Source of the DNA: Lingula anatina
Lineage: Eukaryota > Animalia > Brachiopoda
DNA: 64,000 bases
Direction of reading: 5' to 3'
Assembly (NCBI GenBank): GCA_051362555.1
Contig: CM120649.1
Location: 5,208,001 to 5,272,000 of the forward strand
The position numbers and the translations under genes are program-made. This document shows, piece by piece, positions 27,245 to 60,217 of the stretch (positions are counted from its first letter, which is position 1; each line of letters starts with the position of its first letter). The notes under the pieces were generated by a model, which ran no database searches, had not been told where the DNA came from, and saw nothing but the letters and a program-made list of their open reading frames with translations.

Positions 27245-27556
27245 ATGTTGAAGCACCTGTTCATCCTCGGCCTGATCATCATGCCCATCTTCGCCCAATA
27301 CTTCAGCGGTGGCGGTGGCGGCGGTGGTGGCGGAGGTGGCGGCGGTTCCGGAGGATTTGGCTTTGGTTCCGGGTTCGGCTTTGGCTCATCTCTCGGTGGC
27401 GGCGGCGGTGGCGGCGGCGGCGGTGGTGGCTCCAACGGTGGCTTCGGATTTGGTTCTGGGTTTGGTTCCGGCGGCAGTTTTGTATATGATCCGCCCACAG
27501 TCCAAAATTACAGAACTTACAGAGGAAGGTATTACAGAGGTTATCGAAGATATTAA
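27245..27556 (+). CDS. Secreted glycine-rich protein GRP-2 (103 aa) with Tyr/Arg-rich tail
   Basis: Signal peptide identical to GRP-1, tail YRTYRGRYYRGYRRY. Donor AAG|GTAAGT at 27579, acceptor ttttactttcag at 28285, AATAAA at 28622. Confidence 0.9.
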   Translation: MLKHLFILGLIIMPIFAQYFSGGGGGGGGGGGGGSGGFGFGSGFGFGSSLGGGGGGGGGGGGSNGGFGFGSGFGSGGSFVYDPPTVQNYRTYRGRYYRGYRRY

Positions 27557-32563: not shown

Positions 32564-32821
32564 ATGTTGAAGCACCTGTTCATCCTCGGCCTGATCATCA
32601 TGCCGATCTTCGCCCAATCCTACAGCGGAGGCGGTGGCGGCGGTGCTGGCGGTGGTGGCGGTGGCCCAGGAGGATCCGGCTTTGGTGCCGGTTTCGGCTT
32701 TGGCTCTGCTCCCGGCGGCGGCGGCGGTGGCGGCGGCGGCGGTGGTGGCTCCAACGGTGGCTTCGGCTTCGGCGGCGGCTTTGGTTCCGGTGGCACTTAT
32801 AACGGTCCACCCCCACCTTAA
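32564..32821 (+). CDS. Secreted glycine-rich protein GRP-3 (85 aa), ends TYNGPPPP
   Basis: Signal peptide identical to GRP-1/2, two modules. Donor AAG|GTAAGT at 32844, acceptor at 33615, AATAAA at 33915. Confidence 0.9.
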   Translation: MLKHLFILGLIIMPIFAQSYSGGGGGGAGGGGGGPGGSGFGAGFGFGSAPGGGGGGGGGGGGSNGGFGFGGGFGSGGTYNGPPPP

Positions 32822-39395: not shown

Positions 39396-39479
39396 ATGGA
39401 AGTTTTCGTCAGCTGGCACAAACCGACCAGAGGCAAGCTTAGAAGAAGTATCTTTACTGTCCTCCTGAACTTACCCAAG

Positions 39480-39872
39480 ATGTTAAAGAACCTGTTTATT
39501 CTTGGCTTGGTGATCACTCCAATCTTCGCCCAAGCTGGCGGCGGGGGTGGCGGTGGAGGCGGTGGCGGTGGCACCAACGGCGGATCTGGTTACGGTTTTG
39601 GAGCAGGCTTTGGTTTCGGCCAAGGCAATAGTGCTACCGGTGGCAGCGGCGGCGGCGGCGGCGGCGGTGGTGGAGGTGGCGGAAGCAGTGGCCCCAACGG
39701 TGGATCTGGCTACGGCTCTGGAGGCGGCTTTGGTTTCGGCAGCGGAAATGGTGCCGGCGGTGGTGGCGGCGGTGGCGGTGGTGGCGGCGGTGGTGGCAGT
39801 GGCACCAACGGTGGATCTGGCTACGGCTCTGGAGCAGGCTTTGGGTTTGGCCAGGGCAATGGCAGACGCTAA
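39480..39872 (+). CDS. Secreted glycine-rich protein GRP-4 (130 aa), three modules, C-terminal GRR
   Basis: MLKNLFILGLVITPIFA|Q, three (G12-14)..NGGSGYG.G.GFGFG modules, ends GQGNGRR*. Donor at 39894, acceptor at 40188, AATAAA at 40425. Confidence 0.9.
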   Translation: MLKNLFILGLVITPIFAQAGGGGGGGGGGGGTNGGSGYGFGAGFGFGQGNSATGGSGGGGGGGGGGGGSSGPNGGSGYGSGGGFGFGSGNGAGGGGGGGGGGGGGGSGTNGGSGYGSGAGFGFGQGNGRR

Positions 39873-41877
39873 TATAGCCGTCTATTTTAAAAGGTAACTT
39901 TCGTCTTCACATAGTCTAAATGTGTTTTCTCCTTTTTTGTCCTCTAACGTGATTTGAAACTTACATTCATTTACCGATTATTTTGTTTATATCCTTCCTT
40001 ACCGTATTTCAATCATTACATAAAAATATTTTAAAACGGAAATATAGAAATGACATATTTTAAACTTTTTATTAAATACGGCTTAAAAATGATTTTCAGA
40101 TTTTAAAGTAAGTTAACAAAATGCCAAAAGCAAATGGTTAATATTTCGATGCAGTGAATTGAAAATGTTTTTTCTGTATTATTTTCAGAGGAGAGGCAAA
40201 ACTGTCACTTAATGTTGTCGAAAACACGTCTCTTTGACAAGGATTGAACAAGACAGACATCGTAAAGCTCTGTATCGTCAGAATAAACGACTATAAAGAT
40301 TTTGTGACTTTGACACTAAAAAAGAAACCGTTTGAAAGCGAAGAAGATTTATAGGGTGCGCCTCATATTGTCTATCAGTTAAACCAAAATTAAATCAGCT
40401 GTTACCAAGTCTTATTCACTGTTAAATAAACATTTTTATCACATATAAAATATGTGTCTAATGTTCATTTATCTTTTGTCTCGTAAATTTAATCAGCAAG
40501 TAAGAACATTTCTGTGGGTGTTTTTTCTCTTTCTCTTTTTTTCTTTTTTGGAGGTATATTTTACAATCAAGCAAAGCATATATATATATAAAAAAAACGA
40601 GATTATTTTGAACTCCATCGTCTGGAAAACTAACATTTTACTGTCATTCCGTAACGTTGTAATTTGTTTGTGCCCTACTAGCTGTTGTGTGTCTTACTGA
40701 TAATCCTAAATAAGGAAATACTGAAACACGCGTCTCAATAACCTTCTATGAAAATCAATCACTACAAGGCACTAAGCAGATATGGGGATGCATGCATGTA
40801 TTTTGCTCCTTGGGGTCATCACCAAATCGCCTGTTTAGGTGCCACCTGTAACACTTGTATATGACCTTAAAGTAGGTACTGTACTCCCAGTTACCAGTTC
40901 GCTTTTTTCTCTAATTATCTTTTCCATATATGACGGAAATAAGTGATAATGTTCTCTCACGCGCTATGTTCTTACTACTGATATATTTGATGACATTGGT
41001 ATAATGTTGACATCGCACGCGGTCTTTGACGGCAAAATAGAAACATTTCGCCGGAAGTATTAAAGCATCGGTGGAGCGTGGATTCCCAGTAACATATATA
41101 AAACGCTTCTACTAGTTTCTTATACAACTCAAATTAATTAGATATGCCAAGGGATAAATCACTCGACCATGGCCATAAAAGAGCTTTAAACTGCTCCTTT
41201 CTTTAAATTTTTGGTCTGAAATTTTACCTACTTTCGTGATATACTTTTCTACCCCATTGATATACAGCATAGAATGCTAGCAGAAAAATCCGTACAATAT
41301 TATTTTTCGGGTAAAATTGAACGATTCCTTTTGCTTATTCTCTTGGTTATATTACTAGAAACTGTGTGCTGGCATTTGGTTGGATTTTGTGGCAAAAATT
41401 CTATCTTTAAACACAGTGAGATATTTAGAAAAGCGGTCTGTTACATACGCTTGCTTAAACCTTAACTGTAAGTCAAGTGAAACAACTAAATTATTTATTT
41501 GTATATTTAATTTAATACATATTTTGAATTTAAATTTAAATTTTAATTTAAAAATGTGAAATGTCAAAAATTAGCTTTAAGCCATATAGGCTAGTACAAT
41601 GAACGGTACCCAAAACTCTTTGCTCTTTCACTAAGATCTTGATAGTTATTTTTGGCGAGATTTTTCCCTTTAAAAATTGGTATAATGAGTGTCCACAATA
41701 ATATAACTTGAAAGTAAAACGTCACCATCAACTAAAGACGCTTTTAAATGCACTCTTTGTGACAAATGCTCCCACTCCCCCCCCCCCCCTTATCTCTCTC
41801 TCTCTCTCTCACTCTCTCTCTCTCTCTCTCTCTCCAGCAGTTGCACACGGTTAGGTACAATGTTTCATCATTTTATA

Positions 41878-44768
41878 CAGTCATATGGCAACTGACTGCG
41901 CATAGGAAGATATTCAGAACGGAGCGCATGCGCTAAGATGACGTCGCGGTCGAAAATGTGTAACCTGCGCGGAAATTAAAGAATTGTACTTTATTACCTC
42001 TGTACTCAGCGGGCAAATTATGTTGTTTTAACGTTGAAACAACGTTGAACCATAACGTTGATAATAGGTTGGATAAACATTGGATTTGAAAGTTGAATCA
42101 ACGTCAGATAACAACATTGTATCAACACCAGTTGTTAGACAACATTCCTGCATGAAAAGACAATAAAATGACCTGAAATGTTTTTATTTTTGGTACAAAA
42201 CACAGGTACACAATAATAACGTACACTGTAAAAACATCCAAGTGCCTGCTTTGTCTGATCTTTTTCAACGCATTTAGCTCCTAATAAGCATGTTTTGCAC
42301 CTAAGCATGGTACACCCTTTTAGCCTGGGTGTGTTTAGCAGTAGGACATGTTTGATAGCTAAATATATGTAGGGTATATGTGAACATGGAAAAGGTCAAG
42401 GACGTTTCAGATCGTTGAGGGTGCGCGCGCGCCATCTGGTGTTAAATCCGCAACTGATTGTTGAATTGCGGTAACTTACTTTCGAATCGTTTATTGATTG
42501 TTAGATTTTGACGAATGATTAAAATGACCAAAAATAATTTAGTAGAATTAAGTTTAGATAATTAAAATAGGTTTTGGCTGTTAAATAGTGCCAATAGATT
42601 GTTGAATTGACGTCTGCATTTTCTGCGTGAATGGCGTTCCATAAAAACGACTTCAGAATTTAGCACTGCACGCGTCTTTGACATATTTCCACTTGGTGCC
42701 GGGGAGTTCAATTTGTAGCAGACACTTGGCATAAATTGGACTTTTAATGGGAAAGGATCACTTAAAGGGATAATAACTCTTCGTTTCGGCCAAAAAATGA
42801 ATTTTCCTGGAGTAAACAACAATTTTCACATACTTACCAATGGTTAATAAGTCCATTTTTACATTCAAAGTTAGTCCCTGGTTTTTTTCTAAAAAGTTTG
42901 TTTTTTTGTTAAAATCTCTTAAGAGATTTTAACAGAGTATAGCCATCAATGGAGGTCACGTGGTTTAAATACAAGCTCATGCAGATATCAGAATAATAGC
43001 TATACCTCTGTCACTGCCGTTTTTGTGGTAAAACAGAATATATTATATTTCTGTGAGTTATTCACAATGTTTTTATTGTAAACTATGTAAATCTTGATAA
43101 CTTCTGCAAATACTCAATATATAGATTTCAAATCGTATTTGAAATTATTTTTACAAAAATCTCAATACCTGTTATAGAGCTGCCCCCCTTAATCCTTTCT
43201 TTTACAAAAATGGACTGAGCCGCACAAATTTGGAATGCGGCATTGGTATCTTTGATAAAATTGGATACTTTTTAAAGATTTGCACCTGGGTTAACAAAGT
43301 GCGTTTTCCATGGGAAACTTTGTTTACCAATTTTTCTTAGTTTACCAATGAATGAACTTTACACGTTCTGACAATGACATTTTGTTTGTGTCAGCGCACA
43401 TATATATCTCAAACATATTTCCGTTAGTAAAAGTGTGTCGTGACAGTAGATTTCACGTACTTATATTACTTTTTGAACAATTCCATATTTTCAACTTGTA
43501 TATTTTTTCAAATTCAATATTCAATTTCAGTTAAATAAAAATCAGAAATGCATAAATCTTAAGTCCTTTTAATATATCGCTTTCAGGCTTCTATTTGTAT
43601 GTGTATCAAAAAAGTATCACTAATTTGTGATTCGATCATTGTTGAGAAGCTTGCGGTACAGATAAAATAAGAAAACTGTTTCCTCTCATCCAACTTGCCA
43701 TACACAGATAAAGTATACCAGAAAACATATTGGCACATACAGGCAGAAAAGCTCCTCATATGTGAATTCTGAAATAATGAGAAAAAAGAAGCTGACAATA
43801 ACTGTAATGAAATTAATAACGATGAAGACAAGAGCTAACTGAGCACTTTTAGAATTAGCTGAGGTACTTGTAGTGGTAAATTACATCATACCGGTATAAA
43901 CCCATGGCATTTAATGATAGTTGAACTAAGCATCATGAATTGCGTTTTACTTTAGTAGGCCTGTTTTACAAACGTTATCATGAATCAATATTACCTTTGT
44001 TAAATGTTCGTCATCCTTTTCTGTTCTGGAGTTAAGCTACAACCCGCAGCAGATCCACATTTATCCACCTCTCCCACTTCTTTCCACGTGTTCACTCTAA
44101 TTTGTTTACTAGTAGGCCTACGCGAACCCTTTAACACATATGTAGGTCAACATATACTCTACTGCATAAATGATATTAGATTACGTAAATCCAAGCCCTT
44201 TTCCTAATATTAATAAAATAATAAAATCTCACAGAACTGGACCAATTTTCAAAATGCATATCTAAATGCACACGTTTGCCTTTTGCATGTTACACATCAA
44301 GGATAGGTGAAGGTCGTTCATAAAAATATTCACTGAAACTAGTTCAAACTGGTTGTGTGCGATTCAGCATCGATTTTAAAATCGAAAACTTTGGGTGATA
44401 TTTTAACTCATATCTAAAAATGAGGAAAATTCAGGCTGGCAATATAGTCCCACCCCCTACGAGAGTTATTTTGCGATCAATTTTTTTCAAAAAATCAAAA
44501 TCGTGAACATATTTCAACTAAATTTGTTCATGTTTCAGTAATCCTTTAAAATCGGGAGTAATAACATGAACTGTTCTTATCATCTTTACAAAACCACAAC
44601 TTAAAACGCCCTTGTTTGTTTTTAAAATGATTATATTTGCAAGGTACGGTTTTTCACGTCAGCCAACGCAGATGTCCCGAAGCGGCGCTACTTCGTGACG
44701 CGGACTCACTGAAAAGTTTCAAATAACCGACATGACGTTACGTTTTTCAGCCAGTTGCCATCTGACTG
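41878..44768. mobile_element. About 2.9-kb non-autonomous DNA transposon, probably Tc1/mariner type (TA target)
   Basis: TIRs CAGTCATATGGCAACTGACTG / reverse complement CAGTCAGATGGCAACTGGCTG with TATA outside both ends. The GRP-4 unit lacks this segment (~39075-39097). No transposase ORF recognised. Confidence 0.8.
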
Positions 44769-45072
44769 TATAGTCAAGGCGTGTAGAAGAAGCTTTGGCA
44801 ACGCCAGTATTGACGCTCACCTAGGAAGCATCAATGTCATTTTTTATCACCATCTCACCGCAAACAAGCACTTAGACATGAAATATGACCAGGAATTACT
44901 CTCAACAAGAGTTAGGATCGGTCTAAGACCTCGATGATGCAAACAATTAATCTTGAAGTTTTATTTTGTCCTTATTCTATTTTCATGTTTTGTTTTCAGA
45001 GTGAACTCAAATTTAAAATAAAACATACAAAGTTAAAAGCCTCAGGTCATGCAGCACACTGGTGCTCAAGGC

Positions 45073-45079
45073 TATAAAA
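45073..45079 (+). promoter_or_regulatory. TATA box of GRP-5
   Basis: gcTATAAAA 91 nt upstream of the ATG. Confidence 0.75.
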
Positions 45080-45163
45080 ATGGAAGTTTTCGTCAGCTGG
45101 CACAAACCGACCAGAGGTTAGAGCAGGAGAAGTATCTTTACTGTCCTTCTGATCGTAACCAAG

Positions 45164-45427
45164 ATGTTAAAGAACCTGTTTATCCTGGGCTTGATGATCA
45201 GTCCAATCTTCGCCCAAGGTTGCGCCGGGGGTGGCGGTGTCGGTGGAGGCGGTGGCACCAACGGCTTTGGCTCCGGTTTTGGAGGAGGATTTGGTTTCCT
45301 CTCCGGACCTGGTGGTTCCGCCGGCGGCGGCGGTGCTGGAGGTGGTGGTGGGGGTGGCACCAACGGTGGATCTGGCTCCGGCTCTGGTGGGGGCTTTGGC
45401 TTTGGCTGTGTCGGTGGCAAGCGCTAA
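45164..45427 (+). CDS. Secreted glycine-rich peptide GRP-5 (87 aa), two Cys, C-terminal GKR
   Basis: MLKNLFILGLMISPIFA|QGC...GCVGGKR*. Donor at 45449, acceptor at 45830, AATAAA at 46078. Confidence 0.9.
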   Translation: MLKNLFILGLMISPIFAQGCAGGGGVGGGGGTNGFGSGFGGGFGFLSGPGGSAGGGGAGGGGGGGTNGGSGSGSGGGFGFGCVGGKR

Positions 45428-47166
45428 TGTCGCAATCAATGTTGAAAGGTAACTCTCGTTTTCACATATTTTAAATGTTTTTTTCTCTTTTTTGTCTTTG
45501 TGTTTCTAATGTGTTTTGAAACTTACTTTCTTTTTCCAATTAAGTATTTAATATCCTTCGTTATCGTATTTCTGTACCATCAGATAACAAAATTTAAAAA
45601 AGACATTTAGAAACGACATGTTTCTTTTCTTTTCTTTTCATTAATTACGGCCCAAAAATGTTTTTCGTAATTATGTGGAATATAGCTCTACGTCCATAAA
45701 TTTAGAATTAAAGCATTTCATTAGATTCACCCCCATATTTCCAAAACAGTGCAAAATGCAAAAAAAAAACAAATGGTGAATATTTCGATGCAGTGAATTG
45801 AAAATGTTTTTTTTTCTGTATAGTTTTCAGAGGAAAAGCACAACTGTCACTTAATGTTGCCGAAAGCACGTCTTCACAGCAAGGATGGAAGAGTACAGAC
45901 ATATTTAAGCTCTGCATCGCCATTACCTGATCGTAGCAGATCAACGCCTATAAAGATTTTGTGGCTTGGACTCTAAAAAAGATCTTGTTTGAAAAGGAAG
46001 ATTTATGGGATGCGCCTTCTATTGTAATCAGTTTCACCAAAATTAAATCAGCTGTCACCAAGTATTATGCTTTGTTAAATAAATATTTTACCGCATATCA
46101 AATATGTCTTTAATATTCACTTTTTTTATCGAAAATTTGTCTTATCAAGTGAAAAATATTGTTTTATTTTTCTTTCTGGTTTTTATTTAATTATTTATTT
46201 TTTTGGAGATTTCTTAACCTGATTACCATTAGCTTATGCGTCAACAGTGTGTGAAAAATAAATAAGTGCCATTGTGTTTCACAATATATATTACTAGACA
46301 GTAAACAGTGCATTAAAAATTATACAGGCTGAGCGATAATTCAGCCAACCGACAGTCATCGGCATACATACAGTACCTAACACAGTTCGTCGTGCGCGGT
46401 GTCCATTCACTCAAAAATTCTAAGAAGAAAATAAAGAAAAAAATTATACAAGAGCGATATTTCTCATCCAACCACGGTCAATGACGCCTGTTCCAACCAG
46501 ACGACTGTTTAACGTCGCAAATTTAATCTTATTCGTTAGGATCTACATTGTATAGGAACAAATTTCTTTATAACTCCCCAGTGGGAGGGTAATCTAAATA
46601 AAATAATAGGGGAAAGTAAAAGAGGCGAACGGTTTTCAATATACCTGTAAATATTACAAAATTCAACTAAGACACAAGTTAAAATATAAACATTTGTTCA
46701 GTACAGGAACTACATGTAAAAATAAAGAGAGTAAACTTGCAAAGAAATAGAATAAAGATGAATAAGAAAAAACAGAAATTTAAGTATATATAGTAGTAAA
46801 GACCATGGCCTTGATTTAAAAAAATATAAAAGCATTTTGTCTTTTTTCTCACGTAAAGGAATACATGCACGTGTCCTCAATAATTTATATTCTTACTTCA
46901 ACGCTAAATCACTGATTACATCAATAGTCAGCCATTAATAAATGTAAGGTAGCGGTTTATATGTCCCAACTGCCTATATTTCAAATGCACCTCTGTTGCA
47001 CAATGTTGCTTTGTTCTGTGATACAAACTAGGTGGTTGCTTAATCATTTAAATTCAAACACACAGTAGAATTATTATTAGCATCTCTTTTAACAGTAGGC
47101 AGACACACAGGTGGCTTAGACGTAATATATAACCGACAACCATACGTACGTGACTTGAAATTTCAT

Positions 47167-47168
<2 letters not shown>

Positions 47169-47218
<50 letters not shown>

Positions 47219-47630
47219 CATTGGTCAAAAAGGTTGTCCCACCCCCATTTCCATGTACTTTTATTTACAAATGATCACCTCACAGCTGTGAACTGTTAAA
47301 AATAGTGCTTTTTATTACGGATATCGTGTCTAACATGATTAATAGTTTAAAAAGTACAAAATAGTGGTGAAAATATACACATTTTATACCATTTAGTAAA
47401 ATTTATAAGAGGTACCCCCTCAAATCGACTATTTCACTGTGACTTCTACAGATATAAAGAAATGTCTATAAAATTGAAAAGACGTCGTCAAATGTCACCA
47501 AATTCACACAAAATTAGCATTAGGGTGTGCTCGTTAAAGATCACGTGCCTAACAGCGTGTGCGTCTACCGCGTACTGCAATTATCTCCTGTAGACGGCGC
47601 GACAAGCCTTCAACACGGGTTACAATTCTG
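47169..47630. mobile_element. (TA)n tract followed by a possible Tc1/mariner terminal fragment at the junction of the GRP-5 and GRP-6 units
   Basis: TA|CAGCATTGGTCAAAAAGGTTGTCC at 47216 resembles Tc1-type termini. The segment has no counterpart at the end of the next unit (~53253). No partner TIR found. Confidence 0.4.
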
Positions 47631-48569
47631 TTTTGATAATCCTAAATAAGGAAATACTGAAATACGCGTCTCAATAACCTTCTATGAAAATCAATCACTA
47701 CACGGTATTAAGCAGATATGGGGATGCATGCATGAATTTTTCTCCTTGGGGTCATCACCAAATCGCCTGTTTAGGTGCCACCTGTAACACTTGTATATGA
47801 CCTTAAAGTAGGTACTCCCAGTTACCAGTTCGCTTTTTTCTCCAATTATCTTTCCCATATATGACGGAAATAAGTGATAATGTTCTCTCACGCACTATGT
47901 TCTTACAATTGATATATTTGATGACATTGGTAATGTTGACATCGCACGCGGTCTTTGACGACAAAATACAAACCTTTCGCCGGAAGTATTAAAGCATCGG
48001 TGGAGCGTGAATTCCCAGTAACATATATAAAACACTTCTACAAGTTGCTTATACAACTCAAATTAATTAGATATGCCAAGGGATAAACTGAATAAATCAC
48101 TCGACCATGGCCATAAAAGAGCTTTAGACTGCTCCTTTCTTTAAATTAGGCTATTGGTCTGAAATTTTACCTACTTTCGTGATTTACTTTTCTACCCCAT
48201 TGATATACAGCATAGTCGGTAGAAGATGACTTTTAATACGCAAAATAAACCTACCAAGTTTCATCAACATTTATTCTGGCAATTATTTCAGTAGCAAAAC
48301 TATATTTCCAATAATCAAAAACCAGTCTGTTAAAATCATTTTTACCTTCTCGGATGTCTTAATTCAAAGACGTCATTTTTATCATTATCGCAGCTGCAGT
48401 TCTGCGCTGGCGATGAGAGTTCTTCGCGAAATTTGTCGTCATACAGCAGTCTCCACAATTTTGAATGAAAAATCGACTTAGCATCAGAGTATCTTATCTG
48501 TTAACCATTATGTACTGCGTCTCAATCTCTCTTGTTTATTTCCATTATCAAATTTCAGCAAACAAAACG

Positions 48570-50826
48570 CATGGAACGCCATTCACGCAAAAAATGCAGA
48601 CGTCAATTCAACAATCTATGGGCACTATTTAACAGCCAAAACCTACTTTAACTTTCTAAGCTTAATTATTCTAAATTAGTTTTGGTCATTTTAATCATTC
48701 ATCAAAATCTAACAATCAATAAACGATTCAAAAGTCAGTTACCGCAACTCAATAATCAGTTACTGCAATTCAACAATCAGTCGCGGACTTAGCACCATGC
48801 AGATGGCACTCGCGCACCTTCAGCGATCTGAAACGTCCTTGACCTTTTCCATGTTTTCAATTCCGCATATTATGCAGCACACGAACTATATGTGGTGCCT
48901 CGATATGAAATCAGACAACTTTTGTGTTTTTAATCTACAAATACTAAAAAAAAATCAACTAAGTTAATAAAGGCGTTCCATAAAAACGACTTAAGAATTT
49001 AGCACTGCACGCGTCTTTGACATATTTCCACTTGGTGCAAGGGAGTTCAATTTGTAGCAGACACTTGGCATAAATTGGACTTTTAATGGAAAAGGATCAC
49101 TTAAAATTTCATGAAAAGTAAACTATGTAAATCTTGATAAATTTTGCAAATACTCAATATATAGATTTCAAATCGTATTTGAAATTATTTTTACAAAAAT
49201 CTCAAAACCTGTTATAGAGCTGTCCCCCTTAATCCTTACAAAAATGGACTGAGCCGCACAAATTTGGAATGCGGCATTGGTATCTTTGATACAATTGGAT
49301 ACTTTTTAAAGATTTGCACCTGGGATTTTCCATGGGAAACTTGGTTTACAAATTTTTTTCAGTTTACCAATGAATGAACTTTGCACGTTATGACAATGAC
49401 ATTTTATTTGTATCAGGCCACATATCTATATATCTCAAACATATTACCGTTAGTAAAAGTGTGTCGTGACAGTAGATTTCACTTATATTACTTTTTGAAC
49501 AATTCCATATTTTTAACTTGTATATTTTCTCAAATTCAATATTCAATTTCAGTTAAATAAAAATCAGAAAATTATAAATCTAAAGTCCTTTTAATATATC
49601 GCTTTCAGGCTTCTATTTGTATGAGTATCCAAAAAGTATCACTAATTTGTGATTCGATCATTGTTGAGAAGCTTGCGGTACAGATAAAATAAGAAAACTG
49701 TTTCCCCTCATCCGACTTGCCATAAAACAGATAAAGTATACCAGAAAACATATTGGCACATACAGGCAGAAAAGCTCCTCATCTGTGAATTCTGAAATAA
49801 TGAGAAAAAGAAGCAGACAATAACTGTAATGAAATTAATAACGATGAAGACAAGAGCTAACTGAGCACTTTTAGAATTATCTGAGGTACTTGTAGTGGTA
49901 AATTACATAATACCGGATTACCGGTATAAATCCATGGCATTTAATGATATTTGAACTAAGCATCATGAATTGCGTTTTACTTTAGAAGGCCTGTTTTACA
50001 AACGTTATTATGAATCAATATTACCTTTGTTAAATGTTCGTCATCCTTTTCTGTTCTGGAGTTAAGCTATAACCCGCAGCAGATCCACATTAATCCACCT
50101 CTCCCACTTCTTTCCACGTGTTCACTCTAATTTGTTTACTAGTAGGCCTACGCTAACCCTTTAATACATATGTAGGTCAACATATAATCTACTGCATAAA
50201 TGATAATAGATTACGTAAACCCAAGCCCTTTCCTAGGGTAAGACTTTTAAATAAACTATAACTTCTCATTAATTAAATCTCACAGAAGTGGACCAATTTT
50301 CAAAATGCATATCTAAAAGCACACGTTTGCCTTTTGCATGTCACACATCAAGGATAGGTGAAGGTCGTTCATAAAAATATTCATTGAAACTAGTTCAAAC
50401 TGGTTGTGTGCGATTCAGCATCGATATCAAAATCGAAAACTTTGGGTGATATTTTAACTCATATCCGAAAATGAGATAAATTCAGGCTGGCAACTTTTTT
50501 TTTCTTGCAATATAGTCCCACCCACTACGAGAGTCATTTTGCGATGTTTTTTTTTTTTCAAAAATTCAAAATCGGGAACATAATTCAACTAAATATGTTC
50601 ATGTTTCAGTAATCCTTTGAAATCGGGAGTAATAACATGTTCTTTACAAAACCACAACTCAAAACGCCCTTGTTTGTTTTTGAAATGATTATATTTGCAA
50701 GGTACGGTTTTTCACGTCAGCCAACGCAGATGTCTCGAAACGGCGCTACTTCGTGACGCGGACTCACTGAAAAGTTTCAAATAACCGACAGGACGTTACG
50801 TTTTTCAGCCAGTTGCCATCTGACTG
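48570..50826. mobile_element. Rearranged second copy of the 2.9-kb transposon (right TIR kept, left end lost, internal inversion)
   Basis: Right TIR cagccagttgccatctgactg-TA ends at 50826. ~48570-48855 is the reverse complement of ~42385-42642. Forward similarity resumes at ~48972. Confidence 0.75.
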
Positions 50827-51133
50827 TATAGTCAAGGCGTGTATAAGAAGCTTTGGCAACGCCAGTATTGACGCTCACCTAGAAAGCATCAATTTCATCA
50901 TTTTTTATCACCATCTCACCGCTAACAAGCACTTAGAAATGAAATATGACCAGGAATTACTCTCAACAAGTTTTAGGATCGGTCTAAGACCTCGACGATG
51001 CAAACAATTAATCTTGAAGTTTTATTTTGCCCTTATTTTATTTTCATGTTTTGTTTTCAGAGTGAACTCAAATTAAAAATTAAACATACAAAGTTAAAAG
51101 CCTCAGGTCATGCAGCACACTGGTGCTCAAGGC

Positions 51134-51140
51134 TATAAAA
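51134..51140 (+). promoter_or_regulatory. TATA box of GRP-6
   Basis: gcTATAAAA 91 nt upstream of the ATG. Confidence 0.75.
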
Positions 51141-51224
51141 ATGGAAGTATTCGTCAGCTGGCACAAACCGACCAGAGGTTAGTTTAAAAGAAGTATCTTT
51201 ACTGTCTTCCTGAACGTTCTCAAA

Positions 51225-51488
51225 ATGTTAAAGAACCTGTTGATCCTCGGCTTGATGATCACTCCAATCTTCGGCCAAGGTTGCGCCGGGGGTACCGGTA
51301 CCGGTCAAGGCAGTGGCACCAACGGCTTTGGCTCCGGTTTTGGAAGAGGATTTGGTTCGGGCACCGGACCTGGTGGTACCTACAGAGGCGGAGGTGTCGG
51401 AAGCGGTCGAGGCGGTGGCATCAACGGTGGATCTGGCTCCGGCTCTGGCACCGGCTCTGGCTTTGCCTGTGGCGGTGGCAAGCGCTAA
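51225..51488 (+). CDS. Secreted glycine-rich peptide GRP-6 (87 aa), two Cys, three internal Arg, C-terminal GKR
   Basis: MLKNLLILGLMITPIFG|QGC...ACGGGKR*. Donor at 51510, acceptor at 51893, AATAAA at 52141. Confidence 0.9.
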   Translation: MLKNLLILGLMITPIFGQGCAGGTGTGQGSGTNGFGSGFGRGFGSGTGPGGTYRGGGVGSGRGGGINGGSGSGSGTGSGFACGGGKR

Positions 51489-54400
51489 TGTCGCAATCAA
51501 TGTTGAAAGGTAACTCTCGTCTTCACATATTTTTCCATTTTTTTTTTCTCTTTTTTGTCTTTGTGTTTCTAATGTGTTTTGAAACTTACTTTCTTTTTCC
51601 GATTAAGTATTTAATATCTTTCGTTACCGTATTTCTGTACCATCAGATAAAAAAAAAATTAAAAACAGACATTTAGAAACGACATGTTTCTTTTCTTTTC
51701 TTTTCATTAAGTACGGCCCAAAAATGTTTTTCGTAATTATGTGGAATATAGCTCTACGTCCATAAATTTAGAATTAAAGCATTTCATTAGATTCACCCCC
51801 ATATTTCCAAAACAGTGCAAAATGCAAAAAAAAACAAATGGTGAATATTTCGATGCAGTGAATTGAAAAAAAATTTTTCTGTATAGTTTTCAGAGGAAAA
51901 GCACAACTGTCACTTAATGTTGCCGAAAACACGTCTCTTTAGCAAGGATGGAAGAGTACAGACATCTTTAAGCTCTGCATCGCCATTAACTGATCGTAGC
52001 AGATTCAACGCCTATAAAGATTTTGTGGCTTGGACTCTAAAAAGATCTCGTTTGAAAAGGAAGATTTATGGGATGCGCCTTCTATTGTTCTCAGTTTAAC
52101 CAAAATTAAATCAGCTGTCACCAAGTTTTATGCTTTCTTAAATAAATATTTTACCGCTTATCTTTGATATTCACTTATCTTTTTTTTCTCGAAAATTTGT
52201 CTTATCAAGTGAAAAATATTCTGTTTTATTTTTCTTTCTGGCTTTTATTTAATTAATTATTTTTTTTTTTTTTTGAAGATTTCTTAACCTGATTACCATT
52301 AGCTTATACGTCAACAGTGTGGGAAAAATAAAAAAGTGTCATTGTTTTTTACAATATATATTACTAGACAGTAAACAGTGCACTAAAAATTATAGAGGCT
52401 GAGCGATAATTCAGCCAACCGACAGTCATCGGAATACATACAGTACCTAACACAGGTCGTCGTACGCGTTGTCTAATCACCCAATTTTTTAAGAAGAAAA
52501 TAAAGAAAAAAATTATACAAGTAACATTTCTCATCCAACCGCGGTCAATGACGCCTGTTCCAACCAGACGACTGTTTAACGTCGCAAATTTAATCTTATT
52601 CTTTAGAATCTACTTTGTACAGGAACAAATTTCTTTATAACTTCCCAGTGGGAAGGTACTTTAAATAAAACAATAGGGGAAAGGAAAAAAGGCTGACGGT
52701 TTTCAATATACCTGTAAATATTATAAAATTTAACTAAAACGCAAGTTAAAATATTAACATTTGATCGGTACAGCAGGAACTATATGTAAAAATAAAGAGA
52801 GTAAATTTGCAAAGAAATAGAATAAAGATGGATTAGCAAAAACATAAGTTAAAAAATATATAATAGTAAAGAGCATGGCCATGTTATAAAAGGCACTTTA
52901 ATTCCTGTCTCTGAACAGTATTTTGTCTTTTTTCTCACGTAAAGGAAAACATGTTTGTGTCCTTAATAATTTATATTCCTTCTTAAAAGCTTACTCACTG
53001 AGCACATCAATAGTCAGCCATTCCTAAGTGTAAGGAAGCGGTTTATAAGTCCCAAGTGCCTGTACTTTAACTGCACCCCTGTTGCATAATTTTGCTTTGT
53101 TCTATGATAAAGCCTCGGCGGTTGCGTAATCATTTAAATTCAAACACACAGTAGAATTATTGTCATCATCTCTTTTTTACAGCAGGCAGAGACACAGGTG
53201 ACTTAAACATAATGAATAACCAGAAACCATACGTACGTGACTTGAAATTTCATTTATTTTTTTAACTTTATTCACTCAGAGAAAAAAGAAATTTAATTTA
53301 TAAATATATCAGATCTTGCAATTGAAAACGTAGAATTGAAATATTTCAGCAGACCCCACAACATATCCCTTAAACAAAGTATTATTCAAAAAGCAAATGA
53401 TAATATTATCTGCATGCATTTCATTACAGTGAAATGCATTTTCTTCTGTTTTATTGTCTTCAGAAAAAAATGTTATTGTTGCACTATGCTGCGGAAATCA
53501 CGTCTCACCAGTGAGGATGGAGATTAGCCAACGTTTTAATAGCTCTGTATCTTATTTCCGGCAGGTATACCGGCTAAAAATCTTTGACACGAAAAAAGTT
53601 TGAAAACAAGATGATGATGTAATTCTTTGGCACCGAAATTAAAACAGTAGAAATAGATACCTTTTTTTTCACATACCAGATACCAGGATGTGTCTCAAAT
53701 TTATTTGATCTCCATTTTTTTTCTTTTTCTTTTCCTGCTTTCTCTTTATCATGGCTTAAACCTAAACATTTCATTCCGATATCTCTCCCTACATTTTATT
53801 CTTTCTTTTCTATCTCTGTTTTCTTTCTAGCTTTTTTCTCTCTTTTACCTTTTCTGTCTCTCTCTCTCTCTCTCTCTTTTACCTTCCTTTGTAAAATTAT
53901 ATTTTCCTCATTCTTTTCTTCATCTTTTCATTACAATACTATTATTAAATTCTTCACTTTAGGGGCTATTTGTCATGAATACCGTAAATGAACGCATTTT
54001 GACATCTAATTTGTTAATGACTGATATTGTGATAAAGGCAAGCGATATGATTTTCGATGTGACTTATTTAGAACATTATTATGAAGGAAAAGCAATATGC
54101 ATGGAACAGTAAATAGCTTTTAAGCCTTTCCTCAATGTAAAAAAAAAGAAACAGTAACAGTGCGTTTTTGTTGTGCATACTAAACACACATCAGACGACT
54201 AATGAAAAAATACTGCAATGTTTTCAAGTTTATTACCGACATTTAAAACAAACAATATAAAGATGTATACAATTCACGAATCAATACGTACACACGCACA
54301 CACACACACACACACACACTTGCACACACACACACACTTTATTTTGAGCATTAAAACGTGTTAATATAATAACAAAATGCAAACATTAACAATATGATCG

Positions 54401-55066
54401 ATTTTATTCATTAATTCGACATTTTTCTTATATGAAATAACAATTTTTGAAATTTATTTAACTGCACTTTTATTTCGAGCATTAAAACATCACAGACCAG
54501 ATAACACTCAGCTCTTGATGCTTTTGCTGAGTGAAAATGATTATTCTTTTGAGATTGTTTTAAAGTCGGTCGCCCCAAATTCCCATCTTGATAAAAGTTG
54601 GGCAAATCGAACTTGTCTCATATTCGTGGCAACGTCATAATTAAGCAGGTTCATTCATAATAATTTCAGTCAATGAACGAAGAAAGAATTCCCTCTTCTG
54701 ATCTCATTGTTTTTCGTTGGAGACCCCTTGAAACACATCATGTAACGCTGCTCTCTGAAAAGAAAGATATGTAAACGATATAAAAATAAATAAATAACCC
54801 CTTTTCAGTCAATAAGTTTCTAAAAATAATTACAAGTCGGAGCTTTACAAAATAACAGGAATAAATATCGATATTAAGATCAAGATTAAGATGTTTATAT
54901 AAAATTAACAAAACATACATTTTCACAGATGGAAGTAGTCACACTTTACAAATCTGTTGGATCTGTTTAATGTAGATCTGATGATACATATACATCTATA
55001 AAAAGCAATTTATAATTGCAACAAAATATCTACCTACACGTAGTTGGACTAGTGCTTTGTTGAAAG

Positions 55067-55918
55067 CTAGACCTTCTCGTAGGTGGAGACATCTGGGACG
55101 GCGTAGTCAGCTGAACCTTGTCCTTGACCGGAACCAAAACCGCCGCCAGAGCCACCATCGGCACCACCGCCGCCACCCCCTCCGCCTCCACTGCCACCAA
55201 CAACACCTCCAGGAAGACCAGCAAACCCACCCCCTTGTCCCTGGCCGTAGCCGGCCCCGACACCGCCTGGAGAACTGCTGCCACCTCCGCCGCCGCCACC
55301 GCCGCCGCCGCCAGCAGCAACTCCTCCGTGTAGAAACTTAAGGTCTGGTAGAAGACCATCGACACCAGCCTGACCTCCGCCTTGACCTGATCCGAAGCCG
55401 CCGCCTACTCCCCCATCGGCGCCGCCACCTCCGCCGCCGCCGCCACCGCCGCCGCCGGCTAGGAGACCGTCTGGCCCCAGGGCTACGCCACTGCCGAAAC
55501 CTGCGCCGAAGCCAAAACCAGAACCGCCTTCATCACCTCCTCCGCCGCCGCCGCCTCCACCGCCGCCGCCAGCAGCAACGCCTCCGGGTGCTAAGTTTAA
55601 GCCTGGTTGAGGACCATCTACAACAACTTGCCCTCCGCCTTGACCAGAACCAAAGCCGCCGCCAAATCCTCCATTAGCACCGCCGCCTCCCCCTCCGCCG
55701 CCACCGCCGCCGCCGGCAACAACGGTACCTCCTCGACTAACAGCATAACCTCTGCCGTAACCGGCACCGTATCCGAATCCAGAACCGCCTTTTCCTCCGC
55801 CCCCTCCTCCTCCGCCTCCTCCGCCTCCACCGCCTCCAGCACTAACGTTATTGTCACCAAGTGGCACAGCAATAAGCGGAGCAATAGCCACACCGAGGAC
55901 AAGCAGTGCCTTAAACAT
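55067..55918 (-). CDS. Secreted glycine-rich protein GRP-7 (283 aa), six modules
   Basis: Signal MFKALLVLGVAIAPLIA, six poly-Gly tracts each followed by a GG.G.G.G[FY]G.G segment, CATAAAA TATA variant at 55979-55985, donor TAG|GTAGAT at 55033. Confidence 0.9.
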   Translation of the reverse strand: MFKALLVLGVAIAPLIAVPLGDNNVSAGGGGGGGGGGGGGGGKGGSGFGYGAGYGRGYAVSRGGTVVAGGGGGGGGGGGGANGGFGGGFGSGQGGGQVVVDGPQPGLNLAPGGVAAGGGGGGGGGGGGDEGGSGFGFGAGFGSGVALGPDGLLAGGGGGGGGGGGGADGGVGGGFGSGQGGGQAGVDGLLPDLKFLHGGVAAGGGGGGGGGGGSSSPGGVGAGYGQGQGGGFAGLPGGVVGGSGGGGGGGGGADGGSGGGFGSGQGQGSADYAVPDVSTYEKV

Positions 55919-56432
55919 TTCGGAGATGGTTTGGAAAGATGAATGTTTTCCAATGAAAAGCGTCGGCCCGATTTGCTCTTTTATGTACGTTACAGTGGCG
56001 TGACCAACCTTTTAATGCCAAATATATGTCATAATTTTCTTATTTCGACTCAATAATTGCTTCCACAATTACAAAAATGAAAGAAATGATGGCGTATATG
56101 TCATTCCAAACTATACAGAAGTTTCCTGATGGTCACACATTTTTTTCACATTGAATATTGTAACTCACAAAAATCATGAAATAATACAATCAATGTTTGT
56201 TACAGCAGTGCCGTTTCCTCAACTTGTGGTCAACGAGGGTCAATATAAAAAAATTAATACCTGCATTGTGGTAGTTACACCCGTCACAGCTATCCCACTT
56301 AAGGCTGAACCTGATAAATTGTTATGTTGGTCAGGTAGGAGAACAGTAGAAAGTGAAAAAGACTGGAAAAGTGATGGTGGCTACTTAATTTTGGGTGTAT
56401 TCACTTACTTAAAATTATTTTTTTCCATTACA

Positions 56433-56473
<41 letters not shown>

Positions 56474-58641
56474 GAAGTAATGCCACAGCAATGGTACTTT
56501 CCAGGAAGAGTTCTAAACCCACGAGTGTATGTTTATAATTGTCTGGTCAGATGATGCGATTATATACTGTATGGATGCAGAGTTGTGTAAACAATATTAT
56601 TATGTTAGTATTCATTCATTTATTTACAACAACTGGTTCATGTATACCACACCTTCTGCTACTGCTACTACTACTACTTTTATTGAAAAATGTCATAAGA
56701 TGACTCATCCTAAAGCTATACTACGTTTTGTCAGTCGTGTTCAAATGTCTCTCTTTAAGTTTGTGGTTTCATTTAAGTGTGAAAAAAAGTTACCTGGACA
56801 AAATTATGCAGCGAGAATTTCAGACTTGCATATGCGCATGTTCGGGTCCCTTTCCTTTCAAGGCGAGGCACAGAGATGGAAATCTCCGTCACGTTGAGTC
56901 CCAAAACCAGGTACAATTGTTATGCGCACGAAATAATTGGCTCGGCGAGTAGGAGGAGGGAGTAGCATTAAACTGGCTTCTTTACATTGCAAAAGTGGTT
57001 CGAAAGTACGTTTTGCAGACAAATGAGAAATCACAACAACCTGATAAGTAATCAGTTTACATGCCAACGTAAAATTCAAAATGGCATTTTGTCCCAAAAG
57101 GGAAAGGCAAAATGGTAAGACATTTATTTAAACAATTAAAACGACGCAAGAAAAGTTATTGATATTGCTTCCACTCGTCTAGGAGGAAGAATACCAATGA
57201 CTACAATAACTACACGGTTTTAACTATGAAAAACACCCCGGTGATTGCTCCCTATAGCGCCAAGCAATCGCATAATGGCATTTCGACCGCAAAAGGAGGA
57301 AATACAACAAGGTAAGCATAGATAAATTGATATGCCACTTAGAATAGGGAAATGTTGTTCATTTTGATGCGCGAAAAAAATAAGTTGTACGGACGTATCA
57401 ATCACAAAAGTGGAAGACATTTTTTTTTATCACCTGGATTTCCTAAATAACAAAAACAAGTTCCTCTAGAGATAGCAAGGACTTCACAGCTGGAGTTGCG
57501 ACTGTAGGCTGGATCTCTTGGAGGTATTCAACTCAAAAGAGCCTTAATTCGTTGCTTAAGAAATGTTGCTAAATTTGTTGGGAGGCTGTGGATGTGACCG
57601 CATTGCAAAATAGTAAATAAACCCCTTATCACTATTATAATCATTGGCATTCTTCTTATTATGTAAGTACATTTATTGCCAACATCACTGCTTTATGCAT
57701 GCACTGTCGTAATGTACCAATGAAGAGATATCACGGTAAAATAATTTAAACAAAACTGTATTGAGAGAGATGTGATTATTAGAAAAGATACAACAGTTAT
57801 ATTATTTCCACCCATCCCAAAGACAGCAAAACAAAAACCCCGCCAAACGTTAACTTGCATAAAGTGACATTTTATGTATTTCTTGTTGATATAACACCAC
57901 GCCATTCTGCGTTAAAAAGCGCTTATCATTTTTTTCAAGGTTTGCCTTTATTACTTTTACTCAAAAATGCTTCCTTTAAGATGAGTGAGACATCCATGAA
58001 TTGTTTAACCTGTTTACTTAATGAAGGTCAAAGTAGTAGCAGCGTATTTTGTTTCGGGTATAATTTGGTAGGAACCTGGTAAAGTAAAGGTAAGAGATAT
58101 ACGCTATTGCAAATGGTGACAAAAAATTGACATTTGTTAATTTTGCGATAAATATTCAAATCGGATTCCTACAACTGAACCATGTGACAGATCTTCGGAT
58201 TGATAACATTATAATATTTATCAGTTATATGTCAATGACATCACATGTTGACTAAGAGCCAGGAAAAGTGCAGCGCACGAATAACTTTGTTGGCGGAATG
58301 CCGTTTGCAGGGTTTTAAGTCTGAACGCGGCTTAACACAATTTGCTCGACGAAGACAATACACAACCAATTACCATTAGGTCCCAAGCACTGTCTTATCT
58401 TCTCTATGGTCATTAAACAAGGTGTACACGTATTAGCCAAACAACCAAGACCAATGCTACACGTACACTCTAATTCTTATTAATCATGCAGCAAGGTAAA
58501 CCAAATGGGCCATCAGCCAACAACAAGCACGCAAGCAATGATAATTCATTTTTCGGGCTGCTAAAAAACCTGAGCTTTTCTTTTCCTCGTAATCATTCAC
58601 CGCATAGGAAAGAATCATCCAATACGCGACAAACACGATTC

Positions 58642-58648
58642 TATAAAA
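58642..58648 (+). promoter_or_regulatory. TATA box of GRP-8
   Basis: cTATAAAA 110 nt upstream of the ATG. Confidence 0.65.
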
Positions 58649-58751
58649 AGCTATTTACAGTAACGTGGCCCGCATTCGCTTTTAATAGAACTCCACGGTA
58701 CCTGAAAAGATCCAAGTCCATTCTTCCTTCCGTAACCATCAAGATTCCACA

Positions 58752-59309
58752 ATGTGGAAGGTTGCGTTTATTCTCATGGTGGCGGCTTTGCCGATCATGT
58801 CGCAAGAGTCTTTCAGCTATTCCTTCAGCACTGACGCTGAGGGGAATGTTGTGAGTTCAAGTTCTAGCAGCGATGGTACCAGGGGTGCGGCCGGAGGGGG
58901 TGGAGGCGGTGGAGGCGGTGCCCCGCCGCCTAGAGGAGACGGCGTCGGCACCCTGAGCGCCCGACGGGGTCCTGGCGATCCTATCATCATAGATAACGGG
59001 CAACCTCCAGGAGGAGACGGCGGAGGCCCAGGGCAAGGAGGCAGCGGTGGTGGTGGCGGTGGCGGTGGCGGCGGCGGCGGTGGGCGTGGCGGCAGCGGTG
59101 GTAGCGGCGGTAGCGGTTTTGGAGCTGGATTTGGTCAAGGAGGCGGAAGCGGCGGCGGCGGTGGCGGCGGCGGTGGCGGTGGCGGTGGCGGCCAAGGTGG
59201 CAGTTATGTTGGCAACGGTGGAGCACCCCCGGGCTTTACCTCCCCCGAGGACATTGCCCGGTGGGTTGGTAACAATCTGCAGAGACTTGCACAGAATGTT
59301 GGACGTTAG
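58752..59309 (+). CDS. Secreted glycine-rich protein GRP-8 (185 aa) with RGD, RR site and non-Gly C-terminal segment ending GR
   Basis: Signal MWKVAFILMVAALPIMS|Q, poly-Gly tracts with one GSGFGAGFGQG segment, ends PEDIARWVGNNLQRLAQNVGR*. Donor CTG|GTAAGA at 59314. Confidence 0.9.
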   Translation: MWKVAFILMVAALPIMSQESFSYSFSTDAEGNVVSSSSSSDGTRGAAGGGGGGGGGAPPPRGDGVGTLSARRGPGDPIIIDNGQPPGGDGGGPGQGGSGGGGGGGGGGGGGRGGSGGSGGSGFGAGFGQGGGSGGGGGGGGGGGGGGQGGSYVGNGGAPPGFTSPEDIARWVGNNLQRLAQNVGR

Positions 59310-60217
59310 ACTGGTAAGACAAATCTGATCATAAAATTAAATAATCGTTTTTGGTCTTTTTTTTCTCCATAGAGCTTCATATATTTAAATGCATGTGCAG
59401 TTGTAAAGTAATACCAAATCACAAAAAAGATATTTGTAGATCATATTCGTCCATTTTGTTTTAATTTAGATCTACATTCCGTTTTTTTTATGCAGTGGAT
59501 AACAATAAAAAAGAAAAGAAGTAACTTAATTTGTATGCACTCTTGACATATTGCTGAAGATTGATAGTCACAGGGCTTCTAAAATTCATTTTGACTGATA
59601 ATGACTAATATATCGTGCTATTTGTACTTTTGTCTGTTTTACGCCATTGTTAGGACTGAATGATGGCACGTGTACGATATAAATCATACTTCGGCATCAT
59701 TGCTGTTTCTCATGCAACCCAGCAATATTGCGTGTTTAAATCTGTTAAAAAAGAAAAACATTCCCGAGCTCGTAAGCACGACCTCATAGGTTAGACAGAG
59801 CTCTTCTTGTGTAATGATTTAACACATTAAGGGATTGCCTTGATTACCAACATTATGTCACCTATCGTTTATCTTTTAGAATGACACCATCTCCACCTAT
59901 CGGCCATTAGATGCGCTGGATCGGGAAGGTTCCAGATTGACGAAGTTGTTCTAAGGACAAATGGCAGTACCTCAATAATTTTTCATAAAATCACATCTTC
60001 CTGTTTTTATTGCATCTGAAAAAATGTCTGCAACCCGTTGACATCATCAGCTTTACTTATTATATTTGCTATTGGATATAGAGAGCCATTAATAGGTTCT
60101 GAACGTAATTCATGCTAACAGAGGTTGAAGTAAAGGATTTTGAAATCTCAGCCTGTTTCGGGTATATACAATGCTGTAAATAAAAACTGCGCATAGTCCT
60201 GCCTTATTTTGTATCGA

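What the first reader, a model, noticed from the sequence alone, without database searches (positions are those of the whole stretch)
39480..59309. Predicted pyroglutamate and C-terminal amide capping of poly-glycine peptides
Seen: residue 18 is Gln in seven of eight genes, and four ORFs stop right after Gly-basic motifs (NGRR*, GGKR*, GGKR*, VGR*). Established: N-terminal Gln is cyclised by glutaminyl cyclase, and X-G-K/R(-R) termini are trimmed by carboxypeptidase E and amidated by PAM, as in neuropeptides, toxins and amidated Gly-rich spider AMPs. Inference: these pass through the regulated secretory pathway and are blocked at both ends, which suggests bioactive peptides.
Basis: partly seen in the sequence, partly recalled or inferred. 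Interest (0 to 1): 0.72.

Follow-up and report, generated by a model that had tools for sequence, protein, structure and literature searches.

The report
Lingula poly-glycine proteins with capping signals
A lamp-shell (brachiopod) genome carries a cluster of eight small genes for glycine-rich proteins with secretion signals, four of which end in the signal that normally marks hormones and defence peptides for end-capping, but the predicted capped products would be mostly uncharged or acidic, so they are more likely building material for an outer organic layer than classic antimicrobial or nerve peptides.

Summary
The window is Lingula anatina DNA. Eight single-coding-exon genes (25.6-59.3 kb) encode signal peptide + (poly-Gly / Gly-Phe-Gly) block proteins; Gln18 is in 7 of 8 and G-K/R-stop in 4 of 8. 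RNA reads from three runs confirm strong transcription and show that the intron lies after the stop, so the tails are the true C-termini; reads from divergent animals keep Gln18, both Cys and CGGGKR-stop. The copies are paralogs, so the independent cases are about 3 of 4 lineages (Gln) and 2 of 4 (G-K/R). Capping is therefore a sound prediction, but untested. The step to 'bioactive peptide' is weak: pyroglutamate is also known in shell matrix proteins, capping would leave g4 and g5 with net charge 0 and g8 at -3 (Gly-rich antimicrobial peptides are cationic), and two paralogs end in a shematrin-like RRY tail. Best reading: an undescribed family of secreted glycine-rich matrix proteins (about 0.5); Gly-rich defence peptides remain a real rival (about 0.3). 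Tissue and function were not shown.

The parts
25604..25915 (-). g1: 103 aa, signal 1-17, Gln18, two poly-Gly/GFG blocks, Tyr/Arg tail ending RGYRRY; no amidation motif
27245..27556 (+). g2: 103 aa, inverted paralog of g1 (dN/dS 0.23 in mature part), tail ending RGYRRY
32564..32821 (+). g3: 85 aa, Gln18, ends GPPPP, no basic residue in mature chain
39480..39872 (+). g4: 130 aa, Gln18, three poly-Gly/GFG blocks (64% Gly), ends NGRR; predicted capped form 110 aa, 8348.4 Da mono, net charge 0
   Evidence: transcription
39894..40188 (+). g4 GT-AG intron in the 3' UTR, 21 nt after the stop; 3' exon ends about 40436-40444
   Evidence: 20 spliced reads in run X7
45164..45427 (+). g5: 87 aa, Gln18-Gly-Cys20 ... 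Cys82-VGGKR; predicted capped form 67 aa, 5128.1 Da mono (reduced), net charge 0
51225..51488 (+). g6: 87 aa, recent duplicate of g5, Gln18-Gly-Cys20 ... Cys82-GGGKR; predicted capped form 5602.4 Da, net +3
51510..51893 (+). g6 GT-AG intron in the 3' UTR; transcripts end about 52125-52131
   Evidence: 708, 391, 854 spliced reads in X7, X8, X9
55067..55918 (-). g7: 283 aa, Val18, six poly-Gly runs, acidic (net -7), ends STYEKV; neither capping signal; low read depth
   Evidence: splice-like joint 54725-55038, 19 reads in X8, 2 in X7
58752..59309 (+). g8: 185 aa, Gln18, Ser-rich and Pro-rich N part, internal RR 71-72, poly-Gly/GFG block, amphipathic-helix-like C-terminal 19 aa, ends NVGR; predicted capped form 14339.5 Da, net -3
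   Evidence: starts 58686-58702
59314..59879 (+). g8 GT-AG intron in the 3' UTR, 4 nt after the stop
   Evidence: 359, 287, 523 spliced reads in X7, X8, X9
43078..53257 (.). 4.2 kb tandem duplication (43078-47170 vs 49118-53257, 89.7%) carrying g5 and g6

Best explanation
These eight genes are a tandem paralog family of Lingula that encode signal-peptide-bearing proteins of alternating poly-glycine and Gly-Phe/Tyr/Ser blocks, which are likely abundant building proteins of an extracellular organic layer (periostracum, cuticle, chaetae or mucus) and are predicted to be capped by pyroglutamate and, in four cases, a C-terminal amide. Shown: the ORFs, their strong transcription, the position of the intron after the stop, the conservation of Gln18, the two Cys and the G-K-R-stop in divergent animals. 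Predicted: cleavage after residue 17, cyclisation of Gln18, removal of K/R by a carboxypeptidase and conversion of the exposed Gly to an amide by PHM/PAL. Inferred: capping protects the ends from exopeptidases and strips the chain of charge (g4, g5 net 0), which would favour aggregation through poly-Gly and (Gly-X)n segments; different paralogs carry different cross-linking ends (Tyr/Arg tail in g1-g2, a Cys near each end in g5-g6). Tissue and function are not shown.
For: Architecture: poly-Gly runs of 5-15 (none of 5 or more in g6) alternate with (G-F/Y/S/A)n runs; 44-64% Gly; sizes 68-266 aa mature; no confident fold (pLDDT 42 for g4 and g7). Charge after predicted processing: +3, +4, -1, 0, 0, +3, -7, -3 for g1-g8, i.e. 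5 of 8 not cationic; the Arg41 of g6 is replaced in reads of other animals. g1/g2 end in RRY after a Gly/Tyr/Arg tract, like the RnKmY tails of shematrins and KRMPs (PMC3896809 passages). N-terminal pyroglutamate is reported for LICP, Prismalin-14 and PPL3 (PMC13080008 passage). A PHM (gene 05602, 1 peptide) is listed among Lingula shell matrix proteins (PMC4595640 Suppl. Table 25), so the amidating enzyme is present where matrix is secreted. High steady-state abundance: 520-921 reads per million on the 13 kb stretch in 3 of 3 runs of one study. Nearest clusters by language-model features are Gly-rich cell-wall structural proteins (scores 0.84-0.88, lead only).
Against: None of the 14 Lingula-specific shell proteins of PMC4595640 Suppl. 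Table 26 is Gly-rich (max 12% G) and the motif search in the 2026 shell proteome supplement found 0 hits; this is weak because those searches used gene models (none of the 8 exact proteins is in the protein collection), trypsin (g3, g4, g5 have no internal K/R) and, in the 2015 study, bleach-cleaned shell. The runs are of unknown tissue. I found no report of an amidated Gly-rich structural protein (search listing; not exhaustive). Several features fit defence peptides equally (see rival 1). The RRY tail matches none of the listed shematrin/KRMP signatures exactly.
Confidence: 0.5

Rival explanations
1. They are glycine-rich host-defence peptides, capped at both ends, analogous to acanthoscurrins, ctenidins, armadillidins and the nematode NLP-29/caenacin cluster.
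For: Tandem cluster with conserved signal peptide and variable mature part; g5/g6 mature nonsynonymous divergence 0.177 against 0.040-0.071 in flanks (Fisher p about 2e-6 vs intron), dN/dS 1.45. NLP/CNC peptides are Gly/aromatic-rich, clustered, and start with Gln right after the signal (PMC11993903, PMC2453101 passages). Acanthoscurrins, ctenidins, serrulin are amidated. The g1 tail shares 10 consecutive residues (YRGGYYRGYR) with the C-terminus of armadillidin CE. A two-module six-Cys, defensin-like gene lies 2.6 kb downstream.
Against: Those peptides are cationic/basic; here 5 of 8 predicted products are neutral or acidic, including 3 of the 4 with the amide signal. dN is not significantly above dS (p 0.54) and repeated Gly-to-Thr changes may be slippage or conversion; g1/g2 are under purifying selection (0.23). 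The armadillidin match is low-complexity and armadillidin CE was poorly active on Gram-negative bacteria. The neighbour has no significant Pfam or PDB hit.
Confidence: 0.3
2. The basic tails are kept, not trimmed: they are short cationic anchors or cross-linking ends like shematrin RKKKY, and the preceding Gly is there only because the chains are about 55% Gly.
For: 6 of 8 paralogs have Arg/Lys in the last two positions, two of them as RRY that cannot be amidated at a Gly; in g4-g6 a Gly before the basic pair is expected about half the time by composition.
Against: In g8 the 20 residues before the terminal GR hold only one other Gly; the stop follows the basic residue directly in two separate lineages and stays there when the codon changes TAA to TGA in other animals (749 of 750, 405 of 405, 895 of 896 reads); PHM is present.
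Confidence: 0.15
3. They are neuropeptide or hormone precursors.
For: pGlu plus amide is the classic neuropeptide signature (PMC8557429 passage); g8 has an internal RR and an amphipathic-helix-like end.
Against: No repeated dibasic-flanked peptides; 67-166 aa low-complexity products; signal-peptide motifs of these genes gave 0 hits in the brachiopod neuropeptide supplement and no Lingula hit in a second catalogue (files cut when stored); the one Gly-rich Lingula 'achatin' in print is another, 1256-aa protein and was rejected as spurious.
Confidence: 0.04

Closest known systems
Shematrins and KRMPs (Pinctada Gly-rich shell framework proteins)
   Same: Secreted, Gly-rich repetitive low-complexity, paralog family, basic + Tyr C-terminal signature (g1, g2 end RGYRRY)
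   Different: GnY/XGnX repeats there, long poly-Gly plus GFG blocks here; no exact RKKKY/RRKKY/RRRKY/RRKY motif; no Lys/Trp domain; four paralogs here end in G-K/R instead; no sequence homology shown
Acanthoscurrins, ctenidins, serrulin, armadillidins (arthropod Gly-rich amidated antimicrobial peptides)
   Same: Signal peptide + 50-130 aa Gly-rich chain, C-terminal amide (predicted here), GGGF/GFG-type motifs; 10-residue Tyr/Arg/Gly match of g1 to armadillidin CE
   Different: They are cationic and haemocyte-derived with tested activity; the capped Lingula products would be mostly neutral or acidic; no homology, tissue or activity shown
C. elegans NLP-27-34 / caenacin cluster
   Same: Tandem cluster of short secreted Gly/aromatic peptides, Gln directly after the signal, no internal dibasic processing, rapid diversification
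   Different: QWGYG / YGGYG motifs absent; those are basic and infection-induced
LICP, Prismalin-14, PPL3 (mollusc matrix proteins with N-terminal pyroglutamate)
   Same: pGlu at the mature N-terminus of a secreted matrix protein
   Different: No sequence similarity tested or claimed; no amide reported in the passage seen

Membership tests
PAM/CPE-amidated secretory peptides | N-terminal signal peptide | tested here: met
   Recalled von Heijne matrix: best site before residue 18 in 8 of 8, scores 4.0-8.9; SignalP not available
PAM/CPE-amidated secretory peptides | X-Gly-(K/R)1-2 at the true C-terminus | tested here: met
   4 of 8 genes; intron after stop confirmed by reads for g4, g6, g8
PAM/CPE-amidated secretory peptides | Amide and pGlu observed on the mature peptide | not testable with these tools
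   needs MS
PAM/CPE-amidated secretory peptides | Co-expression with PHM/PAL, CPE, QC | not testable with these tools
   no genome held, runs of unknown tissue; PHM exists in Lingula shell proteome
Gly-rich antimicrobial peptides (acanthoscurrin/ctenidin/armadillidin type) | High Gly content, short secreted chain | tested here: met
   44-64% Gly
Gly-rich antimicrobial peptides (acanthoscurrin/ctenidin/armadillidin type) | Net positive charge of the mature peptide | tested here: not met
   3 of 8 cationic (g1, g2, g6); 1 of the 4 with amide signal
Gly-rich antimicrobial peptides (acanthoscurrin/ctenidin/armadillidin type) | Sequence homology to named members | tested here: inconclusive
   No Pfam hit for 8 of 8; no hit E<=10 for g4; only weak composition-driven hits for g8; such searches are blind to low-complexity proteins
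Gly-rich antimicrobial peptides (acanthoscurrin/ctenidin/armadillidin type) | Haemocyte expression and antimicrobial activity | not testable with these tools
   tissue of runs unknown
Shematrin/KRMP | C-terminal RnKmY signature | tested here: inconclusive
   g1, g2 end RRY, close to but not one of the listed motifs; 6 of 8 lack it
Shematrin/KRMP | GnY (n=2,3) repeats; Lys/Trp lead domain for KRMP | tested here: not met
   repeats are G5-15 plus (G-F/S/A/Y)n; no Lys/Trp domain
Shematrin/KRMP | Presence in shell matrix / mantle-edge expression | tested here: inconclusive
   not in published Lingula shell protein lists, but those methods would likely miss them
Proneuropeptides | Short peptides flanked by dibasic sites, usually repeated | tested here: not met
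   at most one dibasic site per protein
NLP-29/caenacin | QWGYG after signal, YGGYG/YGGWG motifs | tested here: not met
   absent from 8 of 8 (motifs)

The most novel reading that the evidence does not exclude
The G-K/R tail is a removable charge tag: neuropeptide-type trimming, amidation and pyroglutamate formation turn a soluble cationic precursor into a chain with no charged group at all (g4, g5), which then self-assembles through poly-Gly and Gly-Phe blocks, and in g5/g6 is closed into a ring or strung into polymers by a Cys three residues from each capped end. That would be hormone-processing chemistry used as the trigger for building a biomaterial in a brachiopod.
Probability: 0.15. Interest if true: 0.72.

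Novelty: new member of a known kind. Interest (0 to 1): 0.42.

Why it matters
Lingula shell organics are known to be Gly- and Ala-rich and the Gly has been assigned to collagens (PMC4595640). This highly transcribed family is missing from the protein collection searched (0 of 8 exact matches) and largely invisible to tryptic proteomics, so it is a candidate for an overlooked Gly-rich component, or for a brachiopod Gly-rich defence peptide family. It gives exact masses to look for. If capped, it would extend C-terminal amidation to an uncharged structural polymer.

Tried and rejected
No whole genome was held, so other family members, PAL, CPE and QC could not be searched in the assembly. Pfam: 0 of 8 (g1 was given one residue short there). 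Homology: g4 none; g8 5 hits at E 3.7-7.6 and 3 hits at E 2.6e-4 to 7.7e-4 that are unrelated Gly-rich proteins such as an RRM protein; PDB profile hits were GS linkers/tags by appearance (9 hits): all rejected. AlphaFold models of g7 and g4 had mean pLDDT 42, so no fold search was run; a polyglycine-II bundle is neither shown nor excluded. ESM Atlas for g8 could not be obtained. No RNA holder was listed by index; of 7 raw-read runs laid, X1, X4, X5 gave 0 reads on g4 and X2 gave 65 mostly poorly matching reads on the 13 kb stretch; the organism was not shown to be in these runs, so they are no test of tissue specificity. The idea that one of these genes is the published Lingula 'achatin' g6587 was checked and rejected. 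A resemblance of the g4-g6 ends to GGNG peptides (recalled) was dropped: precursor layout differs, and the term had 0 occurrences in PMC8557429. The Prismalin-14 paper was not held; its pGlu is cited second-hand. Earlier scan findings: none relevant.

Full report
Origin. An exon at 18321-18848 (-) is a carboxylesterase-family fragment 99% identical over 95% of its length to neuroligin-4 of Lingula anatina. The window is therefore brachiopod DNA. No whole genome was held.

The genes. A six-frame scan found 8 Gly-rich ORFs, g1-g8, between 25604 and 59309; 5 of the 8 lie within the finding's coordinates. Each has a 17-residue hydrophobic leader and a single coding exon; 7 of 8 have TATAAA 90-110 nt before the ATG, and 7 of 8 have a GTAA donor 4-39 nt after the stop (g7 has CATAAAA and a GTGTAG/GTAGGT donor about 28-30 nt after the stop). 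This shared layout and DNA similarity make them paralogs in about four lineages: g1-g3, g4-g6, g7, g8. g5 and g6 sit in a 4.2 kb duplication at 89.7% identity. The mature chains are 44-64% Gly and alternate poly-Gly runs (up to 15) with (G-F/Y/S/A)n runs. None of the 8 has a Pfam hit or an exact match among about 15 billion proteins; homology searches gave nothing credible, which is weak evidence for such low-complexity chains. Fold predictions were uninformative (pLDDT 42).

The observation. Gln18 is in 7 of 8, and G[KR]{1,2}-stop in 4 of 8, against 4 of 188 and 1 of 188 in the other ORFs of the window, and 1.1-3.8% in per-gene shuffles for the terminal motif. After allowing for paralogy the counts are 3 of 4 and 2 of 4 lineages. 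A recalled von Heijne matrix (column sums all 161) ranks cleavage before residue 18 first in 8 of 8; in g3-g6 a second site before residue 20 scores 1.8-5.1 against 7.0-8.9 and would remove the Gln. In g4 and g5 the last two residues are the only K/R in the mature chain.

RNA. Raw reads of run X7 cover g4 from about 39397 to 39893 and 40189 to about 40440, with a GT-AG joint in 20 reads. On 50800-64000, runs X7, X8, X9 gave 7857, 5570 and 10610 reads (520-921 per million), with GT-AG joints after the stop of g6 (708, 391, 854 reads) and g8 (359, 287, 523 reads); g7 is covered thinly. So the G-K/R ends are the real C-termini. Most reads are only 90-95% alike, i.e. from other animals or paralogs; they serve as a natural comparison. 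176 reads in X7 spell Cys-Gly-Gly-Gly-Lys-Arg-stop before the same 3' exon; on g6 the stop codon is TGA instead of TAA in 749 of 750, 405 of 405 and 895 of 896 reads, residue 17 is Ala, residue 21 Gly, and no change is listed in the codons of Gln18 and Cys20 (table cut to 40 of 345 rows, so g8 codons could not be inspected). Loose ends in 1881, 305 and 279 reads show a further abundant transcript ending Arg-Arg-stop like g4 (the preceding Gly codon is shown only in part). Four other runs laid (X1, X4, X5, X2) gave 0 or few reads and are no test; tissues are unknown.

What capping would yield. After signal removal, K/R trimming, amidation and Gln cyclisation, net charges are g4 0, g5 0, g6 +3, g8 -3; the paralogs without amide signal are +3, +4, -1, -7. 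g4 and g5 would have no charged side chain and no free terminus. g5/g6 keep one Cys at mature position 3 and one three residues from the amidated end. g8 has an internal RR and ends in a 19-residue stretch with hydrophobic moment 0.64.

Comparison with the literature (what I saw). PMC4595640 (passages; supplement part 9; supplement searches): 65 Lingula shell proteins, Gly-rich ones are collagens, the 14 novel ones have at most 12% Gly, a PHM is listed with 1 peptide; shells were NaClO-cleaned, trypsin-digested and searched against gene models. PMC13425148 (passages, section 8, supplement search with 0 hits; the supplement may not hold sequences). PMC3896809 (passages): shematrin/KRMP C-terminal signatures RKKKY, RRKKY, RRRKY, RRKY. 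PMC13080008 (passage): pGlu in LICP, Prismalin-14, PPL3, called a common modification of secreted proteins. PMC6784228 (passages), PMC7017220 (passages, section 11), PMC10608444 (passages): Gly-rich antimicrobial peptides are cationic and often amidated; armadillidin CE ends in a Tyr/Arg/Gly tract sharing 10 residues with the g1 tail. PMC2453101, PMC6780910, PMC11993903 (passages): clustered, basic, Gly/aromatic nematode peptides with Gln after the signal. PMC8557429 (passages, supplement searches) and PMC6425005 (supplement search): these genes were not found among brachiopod proneuropeptides. Ten full-text searches turned up no description of this family; subscription literature, including the brachiopod immune-gene survey I recall, was not searchable.

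Weighing. The functional inference does not follow: pGlu is not diagnostic of regulated secretion or bioactivity; the amide signal is in half the family; and the very processing proposed removes the positive charge on which the cited spider peptides are thought to rely. Long poly-Gly and silk-like (Gly-X)n blocks, neutral or acidic charge, the RRY tails, end-placed Cys and high steady-state expression favour secreted matrix proteins (0.5). Against this reading: they are absent from two shell proteomes, I found no amidated Gly-rich structural protein in print, and the cluster shows features of defence genes: conserved leader with fast-changing mature part in g5/g6 (pN 0.177 vs 0.040-0.071 in flanks; dN/dS 1.45, not significantly above 1), an armadillidin-like tail in g1, and a defensin-like neighbour (0.3). 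g1/g2 are under purifying selection (0.23). The two readings may each hold for different paralogs.

Verdict. Real, transcribed, apparently unannotated gene family; capping is a good, directly testable prediction for g4, g5, g6, g8; 'bioactive peptide' is unproven and is the less likely reading. New member of a known kind (secreted Gly-rich low-complexity proteins), with one unusual twist: predicted fully uncharged, doubly capped chains.

Noticed in passing
window 61901-62847 (+): Secreted multi-exon gene with at least two six-Cys modules (C-x6-C-x6-C-x8-C-x7-CC spacing) reminiscent of beta-defensin/big-defensin C-terminal domains; transcribed, most in X7; joints from 62328 go to several places (62707, 62791, 63494), hinting at more modules or paralogs. 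No significant Pfam or PDB hit.
   Followed up: partly
window 18321-18848 (-): First coding exon of neuroligin-4 (99% to L. anatina protein P0001); the Gly-rich cluster lies upstream of it.
   Followed up: partly
window 25599-27561: g1 and g2 form a divergently transcribed inverted pair (89.8% over 463 bp) about 1.3 kb apart; mature parts differ at many synonymous sites (dS 0.28, dN 0.07).
   Followed up: partly
window 51276-51485: g6 has several Gly-to-Thr/Arg/Ser changes relative to g5 and to reads from other animals, so this copy may be young and diverging or specific to this individual or population.
   Followed up: partly
window 10532-10716 and 33252-33496: Palindromic elements of about 190 and 245 bp (self-inverted hits at 73% and 81%), probably MITE-like transposons; a further repeat pair at 30857-31073 / 47213-47426 and an inverted one at 42383-42642 / 48571-48855.
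   Followed up: no
PMC4595640 Supplementary Table 25: A PHM (peptidylglycine alpha-hydroxylating monooxygenase, gene 05602) is listed in the Lingula shell matrix proteome with one peptide; I saw no discussion of it in the passages read.
   Followed up: no
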